Notes: a model not told the origin generated them from the letters alone. 64,000 nucleotides of DNA from a virus (IMGVR_UViG_3300034104_004584:1-64000), one strand, 5' to 3'. Shown: positions 38,057 to 51,868, numbered from the stretch's first letter. Numbers and translations: made by a program.

Positions 38057-39009
38057 TGGCTTCTAAGATTCAATTAAGACGTGACACAGCCGCAAACTGG
38101 ACATCAGTTAATCCCATCCTTGCATCTGGAGAAATAGGATTTATTACAGATACAAATAAATTAAAAATTGGCAATGGTTCAACTGCCTTTAACTCTTTGT
38201 CATTTTTTAATGGAAATCTTACTGGTTCAGTACTTGATGATTTATCTGATGTAACTATTACATCTGCAACAAATGGTGACTTTCTTCGTTGGAATGGTAC
38301 GGCATGGATCAATGATGCAGTTAATCTGTCTACCGACACGGTTGGAGATTATGTCGCCTCACTTGTTGCTGGAACTGGAATAACTCTTTCAAATAACTCT
38401 GGAGAGGCATCAACACCTACAATTGCACTTACAAATTCTTCTCTTACAGTTAATGGAACGTCAATATCGCTTGGTGGAACAGCAACTATAACAGCAGCAG
38501 CAGGAACTTTAACTGGATCTACCCTTGCCTCAGGGGTAACTTCGTCAAGCTTAACTTCATTTGGTTCTACTCCAACCATAACTGCACCAGTATTAACACT
38601 GTCTACTTCTGCGTCTACTACAGATGCTAGAATATCCTGGGATTCAACGAATAAAAAAATAGTAGTTGGAAATGGCTCGATATCTTTAGACTTTGCCCCA
38701 GCAAATGTTATTACGAATGCTCAAACAGCCAGTTATACCCTTGCTTTATCAGATAAAGATAAGCTGGTTGAAATAGACAACGCTTCAGCAAATAACTTAA
38801 CTGTTCCTCTTGAATCTTCCGTAGCATTTCCAATTGGTACACAAATAAGTGTTCTTCAAACTGGAGCAGGAACAACAACACTTGTTGCTGCTGGTGGGGT
38901 AACAATAAACGCTACCCCAGGCTTAATACTAAGAGCCAGATGGTCTTCCGTTACCCTAATAAAAAGAGCAGCTAATACTTGGGTTGCAATTGGCGACTTA
39001 AGGGCCTAA
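38056..39009 (+). CDS. tail fibre / receptor-binding protein with Mtd-N-like N-terminus
   Basis: KIQLRRDTAANWTSVNPILASGEIGFITDTNKLKIGNG; one GDYV..NNSGE module; C-terminal domain paralogous to 34233..37406. Confidence 0.7.
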   Translation: MASKIQLRRDTAANWTSVNPILASGEIGFITDTNKLKIGNGSTAFNSLSFFNGNLTGSVLDDLSDVTITSATNGDFLRWNGTAWINDAVNLSTDTVGDYVASLVAGTGITLSNNSGEASTPTIALTNSSLTVNGTSISLGGTATITAAAGTLTGSTLASGVTSSSLTSFGSTPTITAPVLTLSTSASTTDARISWDSTNKKIVVGNGSISLDFAPANVITNAQTASYTLALSDKDKLVEIDNASANNLTVPLESSVAFPIGTQISVLQTGAGTTTLVAAGGVTINATPGLILRARWSSVTLIKRAANTWVAIGDLRA

Positions 39010-39557
39010 TCTTTTTTAATACACCAAAAATTAGTTGAACACCAACGGTATCCGCTTTTTATTTCTCTTACTTGATGGGGGAATTCATCTTTAGCTGGAA
39101 AACAAATAAACATTCCAGGTTTTGGTTTTATTAATAAATCTTGATTGGGAAAATAAATTTCTCCGCCCTCGTAGTCATCATTATAATAAAGAACAGAACT
39201 AATGTCTCTGGTTGGATGTCCAGCTCCAGTTTTTAATCCAACACTTTCATTTAAGGAAGATCCGTGATCAAGATGAACTGGCATTGAATCCCCAGTCTTT
39301 AACTCAACTACACTACTTACTCCCTCGTCGTAGACATTGCAATTAAAAGAAGATTCTATAATATTTTTAATTTTGCTATAGTTAGGTTCAAGTAAATTGG
39401 CTAGTATAGGACTACCTCCACCTGCATATACTCCATATGGAGAATACCCAGTTTCATCAAAAGTAACTGGTGTATTTTTTAAATAAAATATAATTTCTTC
39501 TAAATTTTTTTCATCTAAAACATCTTCTATAACGTAAACTTTATCCACATTACTCAT
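39006..39557 (-). CDS. 2OG-Fe(II) oxygenase, P4H-like (183 aa)
   Basis: HxD in PVHLDHG; distal HQVREIKSGYRWCS. Confidence 0.7.
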   Translation of the reverse strand: MSNVDKVYVIEDVLDEKNLEEIIFYLKNTPVTFDETGYSPYGVYAGGGSPILANLLEPNYSKIKNIIESSFNCNVYDEGVSSVVELKTGDSMPVHLDHGSSLNESVGLKTGAGHPTRDISSVLYYNDDYEGGEIYFPNQDLLIKPKPGMFICFPAKDEFPHQVREIKSGYRWCSTNFWCIKKD

Positions 39558-39558
39558 G

Positions 39559-40182
39559 TTATCTCAATTCAGTAATTGTATAAAAAGATGGAGTTGTATA
39601 TCTTTCTCCGGAAATAAGCGGCTTAACTCCATGTAGATAATTTATATCTCCGGGATGAGCAACGGCTAATCCTGGATTAGGCTTTACTACCAAATCATGA
39701 TCTGGGTAATACAATTCTCCTCCTTCAAAATCATCATTATAGTAAAATAAAGAATTTATATCATAGGTTGGAAAAGGATTTGGTCTTCCATCATTTGTCT
39801 GCTTGTCTGCATGTGGTCTCTGTTCCATTCCAGGACGCCACTTAATTATCACCGGAGGCCTAGTTGACAAACCTACGTTAAAAGACGTCTCTAAATATTG
39901 TTTCATTTTTAAAATATATTTATCAATAATATTATAAACTTGAATATTAATTTTATGAAGAATATCCCAACTGCACTGTCTGTCAGCCCAGTAGGAAGCA
40001 TCATATATACAAGTGCCGTCATCGGCATATTGGTTCTCTCCAGCATCCATCCATTCGTTGATAGTAGGTAAAAATTTTTGAATTATTTTAATATCTTCTA
40101 ATTCAATAAAGTTATTGATAATCTTTATATTACTTTTTGATGAACCAAAATGTCCAGGTTCTACAAGCGATTTTTCTTCCAT
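39559..40182 (-). CDS. 2OG-Fe(II) oxygenase, P4H-like (207 aa)
   Basis: HxD in RPHADKQ; distal LHGVKPLISGERYTTPS. Confidence 0.7.
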   Translation of the reverse strand: MEEKSLVEPGHFGSSKSNIKIINNFIELEDIKIIQKFLPTINEWMDAGENQYADDGTCIYDASYWADRQCSWDILHKINIQVYNIIDKYILKMKQYLETSFNVGLSTRPPVIIKWRPGMEQRPHADKQTNDGRPNPFPTYDINSLFYYNDDFEGGELYYPDHDLVVKPNPGLAVAHPGDINYLHGVKPLISGERYTTPSFYTITELR

Positions 40183-50426: not shown

Positions 50427-50435
50427 GATTTAACT

Positions 50436-51062
50436 ATGAGATATAATGAAACGGAAAGAAGTATTGACTCAAATACTACACATATATTTTATGTGGACGG
50501 ATCTCATAGACAGGGCAACAACACGCTGAGAAGATTAATGCTAGATTGCTTCCCTACAATTTCTATCAATAAACCATTAAGGCACACTGTAGATAATTTT
50601 AATCAGGCTTTATTAGATAATGACATCGTGATAGCAACACTTAGACATCCAAAAGAATCAATTAATTCTTTTTGTGGATACAAAAAAATTAACCCACTAG
50701 ACAAAAAAGAAATAACTATGTATTTAGAATTTTACAACTATCTTCATCAGTTTTTATTTTTAAATAAGAATAAAATTTACTTTATAGACTTTAATGACAT
50801 AATAACCAAACCGCATGGAATTGTAAATTATTTTAAAGATAAATTTTTAATAAAAAATAATAATGTATCAAAATATGAAAATTTAACACAAACGCCGTTT
50901 TTTACTTTTATTGACGAAAACGGTGTAGATGGTCATAATAAAACTTCAAGTTTAGACACAGAAGATAAACTATCCTGGATGTTAGAAAATAGTTATTATA
51001 AAGATTCAGAAAATTTATATAAAAGTTTATTATTAGAAAAAATTCAATTAGAGGACAAATAA
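50436..51062 (+). CDS. sulfotransferase-like protein (tentative)
   Basis: TLRHPKESINSF resembles the RxPxDxxxS 3'-phosphate-binding motif; N-terminal GSHRQGNNTL as a possible PSB loop; weak. Confidence 0.3.
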   Translation: MRYNETERSIDSNTTHIFYVDGSHRQGNNTLRRLMLDCFPTISINKPLRHTVDNFNQALLDNDIVIATLRHPKESINSFCGYKKINPLDKKEITMYLEFYNYLHQFLFLNKNKIYFIDFNDIITKPHGIVNYFKDKFLIKNNNVSKYENLTQTPFFTFIDENGVDGHNKTSSLDTEDKLSWMLENSYYKDSENLYKSLLLEKIQLEDK

Positions 51063-51868
51063 TGATATCAAAACATATAGGCATGGGTGTAGTTATCTGC
51101 GAAGAAGTTATAGATATAGATCAAAGCTTTTTGTTTGAGTACATTTCTTGGCTTAAGTCAAATCAAGAAGATACATTTACTTATGTTGAAGAAGATGGAA
51201 TTAAATACGCAGTTAACAAGACTGGTTTTAAATTTAATTTAGAACATATATCTATGGCACCACAAAGATTTGTTAACACAAAAGGCGTAGGGTTAAATAT
51301 CGAAGTGCCACAGAAATATGTAGATTTTGTAGACTCTTTAGAGAATGCAATCTATGATTGCATAGTCGAATACTGTTGCTATTTTCCCGACGCTGCATCA
51401 ACTTCTTGGTGGCGACCAACCGGTCATATAGCAGGATATGAGAATGGACAAAGAATAGGCCCACACTGTGACGATCAAGTTCCTTTTGAATGGGGAAAAC
51501 CAACAGGAAACCAAGTTTCAATGCACAATAGCTCCAGCATTAATCTATATCTTAATGACTGCGTCGATGATGTGTCTCAACTAAATGGTTTTAATTATAT
51601 TGGAGGAGAATTAAATTTTCCAAATATAGATTATAAATGGAAACCTAAAATCGGCTCCGTTGCTATTTATTCATCAAATTACCTAGGTAGGCACGAAGTG
51701 CTTCCAGTCACATCTGGTCAAAGATATGCCTACCTTAGTGTGGCTTCTTATGGAACTTCTTTCGATCAAAAAGAATATGTTGGCGAACCAAATAATCAAA
51801 AAATATGGATGAAAGACTTACAGGATGACTATCAAGAGAGATCTAAATTGAAAAAATATTCACTATAG
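51062..51868 (+). CDS. 2OG-Fe(II) oxygenase (long form, 268 aa)
   Basis: WWRPTGHIAGY, GPHCDDQ, GRHEVLPVTSGQRYAY. Confidence 0.7.
   Translation: MISKHIGMGVVICEEVIDIDQSFLFEYISWLKSNQEDTFTYVEEDGIKYAVNKTGFKFNLEHISMAPQRFVNTKGVGLNIEVPQKYVDFVDSLENAIYDCIVEYCCYFPDAASTSWWRPTGHIAGYENGQRIGPHCDDQVPFEWGKPTGNQVSMHNSSSINLYLNDCVDDVSQLNGFNYIGGELNFPNIDYKWKPKIGSVAIYSSNYLGRHEVLPVTSGQRYAYLSVASYGTSFDQKEYVGEPNNQKIWMKDLQDDYQERSKLKKYSL

What the first reader, a model, noticed from the sequence alone, without database searches (positions are those of the whole stretch)
39006..51868. A 12.9-kb accessory enzyme island is inserted inside the structural module, between the tail fibres and the neck/sheath genes
About twenty genes with no morphogenetic motifs interrupt the virion module. 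They comprise seven 2OG-Fe(II) oxygenases, a WS/DGAT-like acyltransferase, a P450, a GPx homolog, a sulfotransferase-like gene, a possible methyltransferase fold and at least five small acidic proteins. Most are translationally coupled (overlapping stop/start at 42516, 46903, 47517, 48620, 49548 and 51062). The enzyme mix (oxidation, acylation, sulfation, small peptides) resembles a natural-product or protein-modification cluster more than scattered auxiliary metabolic genes. I see no integrase, transposase or flanking repeats.
Basis: partly seen in the sequence, partly recalled or inferred. Interest (0 to 1): 0.7.

Follow-up and report, generated by a model that had tools for sequence, protein, structure and literature searches.

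The report
Phage hydroxylase array beside proline-repeat fibre
The enzyme block is real and is conserved in a large group of uncultured giant phages, where its core of proline-hydroxylase-like enzymes always sits next to a fibre protein made of Phe-Phe-Pro-Pro repeats, so it most likely modifies the phage's own fibres rather than making a natural product.

Summary
Window 39006-51868 carries 20 ORFs: seven P4H-like 2OG-Fe(II) oxygenases with intact HxD...H/R sites, DUF6065, a WS/DGAT-like acyltransferase, a P450, a GPx-fold protein and several small proteins. All six stop/start overlaps are real, and there are no mobile-element marks.

It is not a recent insertion. The scaffold lies at the same site, between tail fibres and sheath, in about 80 IMG/VR relatives. 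Only the middle segment varies. The WS/DGAT-P450 cassette occurs in a subclade.

The key result lies just outside the finding. At 37409-37804 a fibre-module protein ends in 11 (Y/F)-F-P-P repeats.
- Of 118 viral loci found through that repeat alone, 74% carry P4H-like genes, against 10% of collagen-repeat control loci.
- The link persists in lineages whose DUF6065 is only 26-32% identical.
- Reciprocally, 21 of 22 DUF6065 loci have the repeat upstream.
- The ox368 model best matches algal, chlorovirus and bacterial protein prolyl hydroxylases.

Best reading (about 0.45, inferred from genomics only): a virion-fibre hydroxylation module, with lineage-specific enzymes that may further decorate the hydroxyls. 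The natural-product reading is weak because no scaffold-forming enzyme is present. The GPx homolog lacks the peroxidatic Cys.

The parts
34233..37406 (+). Large tail-fibre-like protein (1057 aa) with a short collagen-like segment GPEGPAGPTGPEGPPG at aa 841-858
   Evidence: PHROG tail-fibre and minor-tail hits. Collagen-like run. A fibre of 890-1047 aa precedes the repeat gene in distant lineages too.
37409..37804 (+). 131-aa protein ending in 11 units of (Y/F)-F-P-P. Candidate substrate of the oxygenases.
   Evidence: Translation. 12-nt tandem repeat. Differences between units lie mostly at third codon positions, and the only amino-acid change is F/Y. Homologs with 3-27 units occur in relatives, some fused to Peptidase_S74 or fn3.
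38056..39009 (+). Tail-fibre-like protein (317 aa, Mtd_N N-terminus). Its C-terminal 129 nt resemble the end of the 1057-aa fibre gene.
   Evidence: PHROG hits. Precomputed PF18454. Direct repeat D2.
39006..39557 (-). ox183, P4H-like 2OG-Fe(II) oxygenase
   Evidence: PF13640, 42 bits. H95, D97, H161, R171 conserved.
39559..40182 (-). ox207, P4H-like 2OG-Fe(II) oxygenase
   Evidence: PF13640, 24.9 bits, just under the cut-off. H124, D126, H184, R194 invariant in 42 sequences. Present in 70 of 80 loci.
40272..40958 (+). ox228, P4H-like 2OG-Fe(II) oxygenase. Nearest cultured-phage homologs are cyanomyovirus 2OG genes at about 26% identity.
   Evidence: PF13640, 39 bits. Triad conserved. 311 phage records matched, mostly Synechococcus phages.
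40970..41680 (+). DUF6065 protein with a dUTPase-like beta-barrel fold. Always embedded in the oxygenase array.
   Evidence: PF19541, E 5e-44. 75% mean column identity. AF2 pLDDT 83 and Foldseek matches to trimeric dUTPases, E 2e-5. Co-occurs with the arrays in distant lineages.
41750..42211 (+). s75 and s76 (41750-41977, 41981-42211): paralogous small acidic proteins with an L-G-I-D-P-(E/D)-x-F motif
   Evidence: jackhmmer cross-hits. hhalign 99.7% to the s70 family. Motif and pI. Found only in the window's clade.
42232..42516 (+). s94, unknown. Travels with the WS/DGAT cassette.
   Evidence: No family hit. Present upstream of WS/DGAT in L083, L084 and L086.
42516..43871 (+). WS/DGAT-like acyltransferase (HHCLGDS), GC 0.265
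   Evidence: PF03007, 31.8 bits. TIGR02946 77.6 bits, below its cut-off. H134, H135, D139 invariant in 12 homologs. 16 homologs in 5.8 billion proteins.
43864..45066 (+). Cytochrome P450 (the likely start is the ATG at 43873). Overlaps or abuts WS/DGAT.
   Evidence: PF00067. PDB YjiB, E 8e-39. FGVGVHYCLG, ELIR and AGFET motifs read in the translation. Paired with WS/DGAT in L083 and L084.
45092..45753 (+). s70 (45092-45304), s54 (45306-45470) and s93 (45472-45753): small proteins. s70 belongs to the s75/s76 family. s93 is possibly related.
45743..46516 (+). u257, unknown. A Rossmann or methyltransferase-like fold is possible but not shown.
   Evidence: No Pfam, PHROG or NCBIfam hit. Profile against PDB gives only E 0.5-1.6. 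Family present in 37 loci.
46586..46903 (+). u105, unknown acidic protein. Overlaps the start of the GPx-like gene.
   Evidence: Present in 76 of 80 loci. No family hit.
46903..47517 (+). GPx-fold protein without the peroxidatic Cys
   Evidence: PF00255, 99 bits. The Cys column holds Phe here and A/F/L/Y/S in 45 distinct sequences (window plus orthologs). There is an invariant Cys41 six residues downstream, and Trp is replaced by an invariant His158.
47517..50426 (+). ox368 (47517-48623), ox311 (48620-49555) and ox309 (49548-50426): tandem long P4H-like paralogs
   Evidence: PF13640. 30-35% mutual identity with an invariant triad. The ox368 model (pLDDT 83.5) best matches protein prolyl and lysyl hydroxylases.
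50436..51062 (+). u208, sulfotransferase-like by motif only. GC 0.257. Present in a minority of relatives.
   Evidence: Motifs VDGxxRQGNNTLR and TLRHPKESINS aligned to CurM ST, E 0.79. Found in 8 of 80 loci.
51062..51868 (+). ox268, the fourth long P4H-like paralog
   Evidence: PF13640. Triad invariant in 41 sequences.

Best explanation
The block is a conserved protein-modification module of the fibre region in a clade of uncultured phages of about 210 kb.

Its cross-lineage core has three parts:
1. A fibre-module protein whose tail is a (Y/F)-F-P-P tetrapeptide repeat (window 37409-37804).
2. An array of catalytically intact P4H-like 2OG/Fe(II) oxygenases, seven in this window and six to eleven elsewhere.
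3. A DUF6065 protein.

Proposed mechanism: during late gene expression the oxygenases use O2 and 2-oxoglutarate to hydroxylate prolines in the repeat. They may also act on the collagen-like stretches of neighbouring fibres. The different paralogs would take different positions or sites.

Clade- or strain-specific genes in the variable middle would then act on the new hydroxyl groups or on the aromatic residues. These genes are the sulfotransferase-like u208, the WS/DGAT-like O-acyltransferase with its P450, and, in relatives, GT61 plus a sugar-nucleotide enzyme. The GPx-fold protein would serve a thiol or peroxide-handling role with a non-canonical Cys.

Shown: gene content, intact active sites, conservation of order, the two-way genomic linkage, and the P4H-like fold.
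Inferred: the substrate, every chemical step, and the roles of DUF6065 and the accessory enzymes.
For: Conservation:
- The same scaffold lies between fibres and sheath in 80 IMG/VR loci.
- The HxD...H plus R/K site is invariant in all seven oxygenase families.

Linkage to the repeat gene:
- 118 loci were found only through the FFPP DNA pattern. Of these, 87 have at least one P4H-like ORF, 50 have at least three, and 58 have DUF6065. The density is 3.28 oxygenase ORFs per 10 kb.
- Among 119 control loci found through a collagen-like (GPT)n pattern, 12 have at least one, 1 has at least three, and the density is 0.17 per 10 kb.
- The median gap between the repeat ORF and the nearest oxygenase is 478 bp.
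- The order big fibre, FFPP protein, 6-11 oxygenases plus DUF6065 persists in 29 loci whose DUF6065 is 26-32% identical to the window's. These loci lack the GPx-like, u105, u257 and small-protein genes.
- Reciprocally, 21 of 22 DUF6065-retrieved loci with a full 10-kb upstream flank encode 5-18 repeat units on the same strand.

The repeat protein looks fibre-like: it is fused to Peptidase_S74 (44.6 bits) or to fn3 in relatives.

Fold: the ox368 model's best matches are Chlamydomonas P4H-1, PBCV-1 collagen prolyl hydroxylase, the EF-Tu P4H and B. anthracis P4H. By my own knowledge, the algal and chlorovirus enzymes act on proline-rich repeat peptides.

DUF6065 partnership: a cellular DUF6065 (Pirellulaceae MAG) is flanked by overlapping Cupin_8 and Sulfotransfer_1 genes. 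This links DUF6065 to hydroxylation and sulfation independently.

Relatives add GT61, HAD/NTP_transferase and TauD genes at the same site.
Against: - No biochemical or proteomic evidence exists. The link is by adjacency only, and the loci are phylogenetically related, so the counts are not independent events.
- P4H-fold enzymes also act on small molecules. PasI and TlxIJ are among the structural matches.
- Seven to eleven paralogs is many for one simple repeat.
- In the window two genes separate the repeat gene from the first oxygenase.
- The control loci come from all environments, not from matched lineages.
- The roles of DUF6065 (dUTPase-like fold), u105, the small acidic proteins and the GPx-like protein remain unexplained.
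- WS/DGAT family enzymes are known as lipid acyltransferases, not protein acyltransferases.
Confidence: 0.45

Rival explanations
1. The oxygenases and their companions are host-directed auxiliary genes. They would hydroxylate host proteins such as translation factors or ribosomal proteins, or host metabolites. They sit next to the fibre genes only because that site is a tolerated hyperplastic region, and the FFPP gene is a lineage marker rather than a substrate.
For: Bacterial P4H-fold enzymes that modify EF-Tu are among the best structural matches. The small oxygenases are distantly related to cyanomyovirus 2OG genes, which lie among metabolic genes and not near fibres. The middle of the block is clearly hypervariable. 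The literature treats viral P4H as a cryptic auxiliary gene (PMC9301287; PMC3037559).
Against: Adjacency to the repeat gene, with a median gap of 478 bp, is kept across lineages with 26-32% DUF6065 identity while everything else changes. Fibre loci in general rarely carry such genes.
Confidence: 0.22
2. One reading: a natural-product, lipid or RiPP-like pathway. The small acidic proteins or a lipid would be oxidised by 2OG oxygenases and the P450, then acylated by WS/DGAT and sulfated.
For: WS/DGAT and P450 genes overlap or abut, and the pair with its flanking small genes is conserved down to 42% identity. The catalytic HHxxxD is invariant. The small-protein family has a conserved D-P motif. 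The best NCBIfam match of the P450 is to a cyclodipeptide-associated subfamily, though far below its cut-off. A secondary-metabolite-like cluster with 2OG enzymes has been proposed for cyanophages (PMC7824862).
Against: No scaffold-forming enzyme (PKS, NRPS, terpene synthase, YcaO, radical SAM, cyclodipeptide synthase) was found among the ORFs. WS/DGAT and P450 are absent from all 80 IMG/VR relatives. The small proteins are absent from the distant lineages that keep the oxygenase array. The small proteins are 54-94 aa with no leader/core pattern.
Confidence: 0.13
3. The array manipulates the 2-oxoglutarate/succinate or redox status of the host, as proposed for cyanophages, with no specific macromolecular substrate.
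For: The hypothesis is published for cyanomyovirus 2OG genes (PMC3037559). GPx-fold and peroxiredoxin-like genes accompany the array.
Against: Seven divergent paralogs are each conserved as orthologs, and the four long ones carry distinct N- and C-terminal extensions. That pattern suggests substrate specificity rather than bulk 2OG consumption. This idea also does not explain the link to the repeat gene.
Confidence: 0.07

Closest known systems
Chlorovirus PBCV-1 prolyl 4-hydroxylase (vCPH) and Chlamydomonas P4H-1 with their proline-rich repeat substrates
   Same: A virus-encoded P4H-fold 2OG oxygenase (best structural matches) occurs together with virus-encoded proline-rich tandem-repeat proteins.
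   Different: Here the virus is a tailed phage, and there are 7 oxygenase paralogs (6-11 in relatives) instead of one. The repeat is (Y/F)FPP, not PAPK or SP4. A DUF6065 partner is present, and the genes are physically clustered with the repeat gene. Hydroxylation has not been demonstrated.
Mimivirus L230 (collagen lysyl hydroxylase plus glycosyltransferase) acting on viral collagen-like fibril proteins
   Same: Viral hydroxylation followed by further decoration of fibre proteins. L230 is among the structural matches. Relatives of this phage carry a GT61 and a sugar-nucleotide enzyme in the block.
   Different: Separate genes rather than a fusion. The collagen-like segments here are short. The host is probably bacterial.
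Multi-copy 2OG-Fe(II) oxygenase genes of T4-like cyanomyoviruses
   Same: Same superfamily. The nearest cultured-phage homologs of ox228 have about 26% identity. There are several copies per genome, and the function is unknown (PMC3037559).
   Different: In the one cyanophage record examined, the homolog lies among metabolic genes. DUF6065 has no match in 50,697 phage records. No repeat-gene linkage has been described.
Cyanophage secondary-metabolite-like or capsule-decoration cluster described by Iyer et al. 2021 (PMC7824862)
   Same: A phage gene cluster combining several 2OG and cupin hydroxylases with transferases.
   Different: That cluster is built around carbamoyltransferases, a halogenase and a HemK-like methylase. 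None of these is present here.
Plant and algal extensin maturation (P4H, then O-glycosylation, with Tyr cross-linking)
   Same: A proline-plus-aromatic tandem repeat lies next to P4H-like enzymes. Glycosyltransferase and redox enzymes are nearby. This is an analogy from my own knowledge.
   Different: No homology of the repeat protein. No evidence of cross-linking or glycosylation here.

Membership tests
2OG-Fe(II) oxygenase superfamily, P4H-like (PF13640) | Profile match above the curated cut-off | tested here: met
   Six of seven ORFs score 36-47 bits against a cut-off of 27. ox207 scores 24.9 bits.
2OG-Fe(II) oxygenase superfamily, P4H-like (PF13640) | HxD/E...H iron triad and a basic residue that binds the 2OG C5 carboxylate | tested here: met
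   Invariant in 28-47 distinct orthologs of each of the seven.
2OG-Fe(II) oxygenase superfamily, P4H-like (PF13640) | Double-stranded beta-helix fold closest to peptidyl prolyl or lysyl hydroxylases | tested here: met
   ox368 model has pLDDT 83.5. Best matches are 2jig, 5c5t, 5v7y, 3itq and PHD2, E 2e-9 to 1e-6, TM (target-normalised) 0.55-0.67. Only one of the seven was modelled.
2OG-Fe(II) oxygenase superfamily, P4H-like (PF13640) | Peptidyl-proline hydroxylation activity | not testable with these tools
   Needs an enzyme assay or mass spectrometry.
WS/DGAT acyltransferases | Catalytic-domain profile match | tested here: inconclusive
   Pfam WS_DGAT_cat scores 31.8 bits, above its 23.6 cut-off. 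NCBIfam TIGR02946 scores 77.6 bits against a cut-off of 309.95. The C-terminal domain scores 17.8 against 20.7.
WS/DGAT acyltransferases | HHxxxDG active-site motif | tested here: inconclusive
   The motif reads HHCLGDS. H134, H135 and D139 are invariant in 12 homologs, and the final Gly is replaced by an invariant Ser.
Cytochrome P450 | Profile match, Cys-ligand loop FxxGxxxCxG, ExxR motif and I-helix AGxxT | tested here: met
   PF00067, 44 bits. 383 PDB P450 matches, best E 8e-39. FGVGVHYCLG, ELIR and AGFET are read in the translation. No redox partner was looked for beyond the block.
Glutathione peroxidase | Profile match to GSHPx | tested here: met
   PF00255, 99.4 bits. PDB GPx and Hyr1 matches, E 2e-25.
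Glutathione peroxidase | Catalytic tetrad: peroxidatic Cys/Sec, Gln, Trp, Asn | tested here: not met
   The Cys column holds Phe here and A/F/L/Y/S in 45 distinct sequences (window plus orthologs). Trp is replaced by an invariant His. Asn is variable and Gln is kept. An invariant Cys lies six residues downstream.
Sulfotransferase (u208) | Profile match and the 5'-PSB and 3'-PB PAPS-binding motifs | tested here: inconclusive
   No Pfam, NCBIfam or PHROG hit. The only PDB hit of the profile is CurM ST at E 0.79, but both motifs align.
Class I SAM methyltransferase (u257) | Profile match and the GxGxG SAM-binding motif | tested here: not met
   No family hit. PDB profile hits at E 0.5-1.6 include three methyltransferases. 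No GxGxG motif is visible in the alignment.
Trimeric dUTPase (DUF6065) | dUTPase fold and the conserved dUTPase motifs | tested here: inconclusive
   Fold-level matches have E 2e-5 and 10-15% identity. A sequence profile finds no dUTPase in PDB. I saw no dUTPase motifs in the consensus.
Mobile genomic island | Integrase or transposase, flanking repeats, patchy presence at the site | tested here: not met
   No such domains. Only paralog-derived repeats. The scaffold is present at the same site in all relatives. Only the middle cassette is variable and has low GC.
Biosynthetic gene cluster (natural product or RiPP) | Scaffold-forming core enzyme, or a precursor peptide with a recognisable leader/core | tested here: not met
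   None among the 20 ORFs in Pfam, NCBIfam or PHROGs. The small proteins are restricted to this clade.
Viral P4H plus proline-rich substrate system (PBCV-1 type) | Virus encodes both a P4H-fold enzyme and proline-rich tandem-repeat proteins | tested here: met
Viral P4H plus proline-rich substrate system (PBCV-1 type) | Hydroxyproline present in the viral protein | not testable with these tools
   Needs proteomics.

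The most novel reading that the evidence does not exclude
Tailed phages of several uncultured, apparently freshwater lineages build a fibre from a polyproline-type (Y/F)-F-P-P repeat. They mature it with their own multi-enzyme pathway: an array of specialised prolyl hydroxylases plus DUF6065, followed by lineage-specific sulfation, acylation, glycosylation or P450 chemistry. This would be the first phage-encoded hydroxylation pathway for virion proteins. 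It would also explain part of the abundant but cryptic viral 'P4H' auxiliary genes.
Probability: 0.3. Interest if true: 0.85.

Novelty: new variant of a known kind. Interest (0 to 1): 0.62.

Why it matters
P4H-like 2OG oxygenases are among the most abundant 'auxiliary' genes in aquatic viromes. Their role is openly described as cryptic (PMC9301287; PMC3037559).

A specific, physically linked candidate substrate, the (Y/F)FPP repeat protein, turns that open question into a simple experiment. One can co-express the proteins or purify virions and look for +16 Da on the repeat.

If confirmed, it would show enzymatic post-translational maturation of phage fibres. That bears on host recognition, virion stability and the engineering of hydroxylated repeat materials. 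It would also give a first functional context to DUF6065.

Tried and rejected
- Megablast of the whole block against 50,697 phage records found nothing. The exact-sequence look-up of the P450 failed because of the wrong start codon.
- P450 and WS/DGAT scans of IMG/VR found no relatives. Relatives came only from the 5.8-billion-protein search.
- PHROGs gave nothing for any small or unknown ORF.
- Sequence profiles of DUF6065 and u257 against PDB gave nothing significant.
- T4-like cyanophage origin was rejected. The portal is 39% identical to the Bacillus phage 0305phi8-36 group, and the structural genes are unlike T4.
- Recent horizontal insertion of the whole block was rejected.
- The small acidic proteins as acyl carrier proteins or RiPP precursors: there is no Ser-containing DSL motif and no leader/core pattern, and they are clade-restricted. 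I did not pursue this further.
- Host assignment from genome bins failed. Contigs of this clade are binned into Acidibacter, Cyclobacteriaceae, Verrucomicrobiales and other MAGs inconsistently, so the binning is unreliable.
- tRNA scan: none found.
- The promoter and terminator scan was no better than shuffles (81 vs 71.7 and 10 vs 6.7), so transcription units could not be defined.
- The literature search for DUF6065 returned zero papers.

Full report
**1. What is in the sequence**

Window 39006-51868 holds 20 ORFs. Two are on the minus strand (ox183 and ox207). The rest are on the plus strand, the same strand as the structural genes.

Pfam gives the following:
- PF13640 (P4H-type 2OG-Fe(II) oxygenase) for seven ORFs. 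Six are above the curated cut-off, and ox207 is just below at 24.9 against 27.
- DUF6065, E 5e-44.
- The WS/DGAT catalytic domain, 31.8 bits.
- A P450.
- GSHPx, 99 bits.

All seven oxygenases keep an invariant HxD...H triad and the R/K that binds 2OG. This holds in 28-47 distinct orthologs each.

The P450 is a typical bacterial class I enzyme. Its best solved relative is YjiB at E 8e-39. It has the Cys-ligand loop, the ExxR motif and the AGxxT motif.

The WS/DGAT motif reads HHCLGDS. The two His and the Asp are invariant in 12 homologs.

All six reported stop/start overlaps are real. There is no integrase, transposase or flanking repeat.

Upstream ORFs are tail-fibre-like, and downstream ORFs include virion and tail-sheath proteins.

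The phage is an uncultured myovirus-like phage. Its portal is 39% identical to the Bacillus phage 0305phi8-36 group. The identical WS/DGAT protein sits on contigs of up to 210,790 bp.

**2. Corrections to the observation**

- The GPx homolog fails the active-site test. The peroxidatic Cys column holds Phe here and A/F/L/Y/S in 45 distinct sequences (the window protein plus its orthologs). The catalytic Trp is replaced by an invariant His. A different Cys six residues downstream is invariant.
- 'Sulfotransferase-like' (u208) rests on two aligned PAPS-binding motifs and a single non-significant PDB hit, CurM ST at E 0.79.
- The 'methyltransferase fold' of u257 is not supported.

**3. Conservation**

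A scan of IMG/VR with ox368 found 141 relatives at 64-76% identity, and 80 loci were fetched. tblastn mapping shows one scaffold in essentially all of them:
- fibres
- [ox183-] ox207- ox228+
- [a second, canonical-Cys GPx-like gene]
- DUF6065
- a variable 1.5-4 kb segment
- u105, GPx-like, ox368, ox311, ox309, [u208], ox268
- virion and sheath genes

So the block is ancestral at this site and is not an insertion.

The variable segment of the IMG/VR relatives holds:
- another 2OG-like gene (59 loci)
- the s75/s76 small-protein family (48 loci)
- u257 (37 loci)
- s93 (33 loci)
- a 404-aa unknown (26 loci)
- occasional AurF-like, methyltransferase or 2OG_Oxy_5 genes

WS/DGAT, P450, s94, s75 and s54 are absent from all 80 loci. 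However, the 5.8-billion-protein search found 16 WS/DGAT homologs.

The three non-identical genomic contexts I looked up have WS/DGAT at 42-59% identity. They show the same cassette at the same site: two s75-like genes, s94, WS/DGAT, then P450 overlapping it. In the two loci that extend past the P450 (L083 and L084/85), three small genes and u257 follow. The third, L086, ends within the P450.

The cassette genes s75, s76, s94 and WS/DGAT have GC of about 0.26, as does u208. Neighbouring genes have 0.33-0.39.

**4. The decisive observation lies just upstream**

At 37409-37804, between the 1057-aa fibre and the 317-aa fibre, a 131-aa protein ends in 11 units of (Y/F)-F-P-P. Units differ mostly at third codon positions, and the only amino-acid change is F/Y, so the repeat is under protein-level constraint.

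Homologs in relatives have 3-27 units. Some are fused to the Peptidase_S74 intramolecular chaperone typical of fibres and spikes, or to fn3 domains.

The 1057-aa fibre has a short collagen-like run. Relatives have longer GPT runs.

**5. Linkage tests**

Forward test. A blind scan of IMG/VR for the repeat's degenerate DNA pattern returned 118 new loci. I searched them with HMMs built from the seven oxygenase families.
- 87 loci (74%) hold at least one such ORF, 50 hold at least three, and 58 hold DUF6065.
- The density is 3.28 ORFs per 10 kb.
- Among loci of at least 8 kb, 51 of 59 hold one.

Control. 119 loci were retrieved through a collagen-like (GPT)n pattern. They gave 12 with at least one, 1 with at least three, and a density of 0.17 per 10 kb.

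Proximity. The median gap from the repeat ORF to the nearest oxygenase ORF is 478 bp.

Depth. DUF6065 proteins in these loci fall into at least ten clusters at 55% identity. In 29 loci DUF6065 is only 26-32% identical to the window's. Those loci still show a large fibre, then an FFPP protein, then 6-11 oxygenases plus DUF6065. They lack the GPx-like, u105, u257 and small-protein genes.

Reciprocal test. Of 22 loci retrieved via DUF6065 with a full 10-kb upstream flank, 21 encode 5-18 repeat units on the same strand. The other one has a collagen-like run.

The cross-lineage core is therefore the FFPP protein, the oxygenase array and DUF6065.

**6. Structure**

The ox368 model (pLDDT 83.5) best matches protein hydroxylases:
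- Chlamydomonas P4H-1
- the PBCV-1 collagen prolyl hydroxylase
- the Pseudomonas EF-Tu P4H
- B. anthracis P4H
- PHD2
- LH3
- mimivirus L230

A few small-molecule enzymes rank lower in the list.

The DUF6065 model (pLDDT 83) has a dUTPase-like beta-barrel, with E 2e-5 and 10-15% identity. I saw no dUTPase motifs, so its role is open.

In a Pirellulaceae MAG contig next to ilvC, a cellular DUF6065 is flanked by overlapping Cupin_8 (JmjC-type oxygenase) and Sulfotransfer_1 genes. This is an independent hint, from a single case, that DUF6065 works with hydroxylases and sulfotransferases.

**7. Interpretation**

The most economical reading is a fibre-protein modification module. The oxygenases would hydroxylate the proline repeat, and possibly the collagen-like runs. 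The variable enzymes are all of classes that act on hydroxyl or aromatic groups: the sulfotransferase-like protein, an O-acyltransferase with a P450, and GT61 with a sugar-nucleotide enzyme in relatives.

This is inference from genomic linkage and fold. No step is demonstrated. I put it at about 0.45.

Rivals:
- Host-directed hydroxylation in a merely permissive genome site (about 0.22).
It is weakened by the lack of any scaffold-forming enzyme and by the clade-restricted distribution of its supposed parts.
- Bulk 2OG or redox manipulation (about 0.07).

**8. Relation to what is known**

- Multi-copy 2OG-Fe(II) genes of unknown role are well known in cyanomyoviruses (PMC3037559). The nearest cultured-phage homologs of ox228 are those genes, at about 26% identity. 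In the one cyanophage record I examined the homolog lies among metabolic genes.
- Viral P4H use is called cryptic in the literature (PMC9301287).
- A different hydroxylase-rich secondary-metabolite-like cluster has been proposed for cyanophages (PMC7824862).
- DUF6065 has no match in 50,697 phage records and no paper in the library.
- I found no description of the FFPP-repeat and oxygenase-array linkage.

I therefore class this as a new variant of a known kind, namely viral protein-hydroxylation systems of the PBCV-1 and mimivirus type. Interest is moderate to high, because it gives a concrete, testable substrate.

Noticed in passing
window 37409-37804 (+): A 131-aa protein ends in 11 perfect (Y/F)-F-P-P units, encoded by a 12-nt DNA tandem repeat at 37656-37798. 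This became central to the explanation.
   Followed up: yes
window 46903-47517 (+): The GPx-fold protein has Phe in place of the peroxidatic Cys and His in place of the catalytic Trp. An invariant Cys lies six residues downstream in a GYxPxCS motif with a 13-residue insertion. Many relatives also carry a second, 226-aa GPx-like gene with a canonically placed Cys between ox228 and DUF6065. The window lacks that gene.
   Followed up: partly
window 36753-36806 (aa 841-858 of the 34233-37406 ORF); L009, L035, L086 and other loci: There is a short collagen-like G-X-Y run in the large fibre. Longer GPT runs occur in fibre ORFs of relatives directly upstream of the oxygenases.
   Followed up: partly
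L331 5538-8178 (Pirellulaceae MAG contig JAWXCK010000163.1): A cellular DUF6065 gene is flanked by overlapping Cupin_8 (JmjC-like) and Sulfotransfer_1 genes, next to ilvC. The component set parallels the phage block.
   Followed up: partly
window 41750-43871 and 50436-51062: s75, s76, s94, WS/DGAT and u208 have GC of about 0.26, against 0.33-0.39 for neighbours and 0.375 for the window. This suggests a different history or different constraint for these genes.
   Followed up: partly
window 37279-37407 vs 38882-39010: The 3' ends of the 1057-aa and 317-aa fibre genes are 71% identical over 129 nt, indicating a shared C-terminal module.
   Followed up: no
window 6254-7234 (-) and 7807-9318 (+): A bacterial-type RecA (PF00154, 390 bits) and a ClpB/Clp-like AAA ATPase are encoded in the window. 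The first ~5 kb of the window has higher GC (0.42-0.45).
   Followed up: no
L084 4536-7225; L086 5563-6375; L044 7270-9053: Relatives carry extra cargo in the same block: GT61 glycosyltransferase plus a HAD/NTP_transferase fusion, a TauD-family dioxygenase, an AurF-like di-iron oxygenase and a SAM methyltransferase. One relative has up to 11 oxygenases.
   Followed up: partly
L324-L328 (genome-contig hits): Contigs of this phage clade are deposited inside MAGs assigned to Acidibacter, Gammaproteobacteria, Cyclobacteriaceae and Verrucomicrobiales. This is probably mis-binned phage DNA, so no host can be inferred.
   Followed up: no
window 41750-42211, 45092-45304 (and possibly 45472-45753): Small acidic proteins s75, s76 and s70 form one family (hhalign 99.7%) with the conserved motif L-G-I-D-P-(E/D)-x-F-D. 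Its Pro is conserved in 60 of 78 sequences. The family is restricted to the window's clade and its function is unknown.
   Followed up: partly
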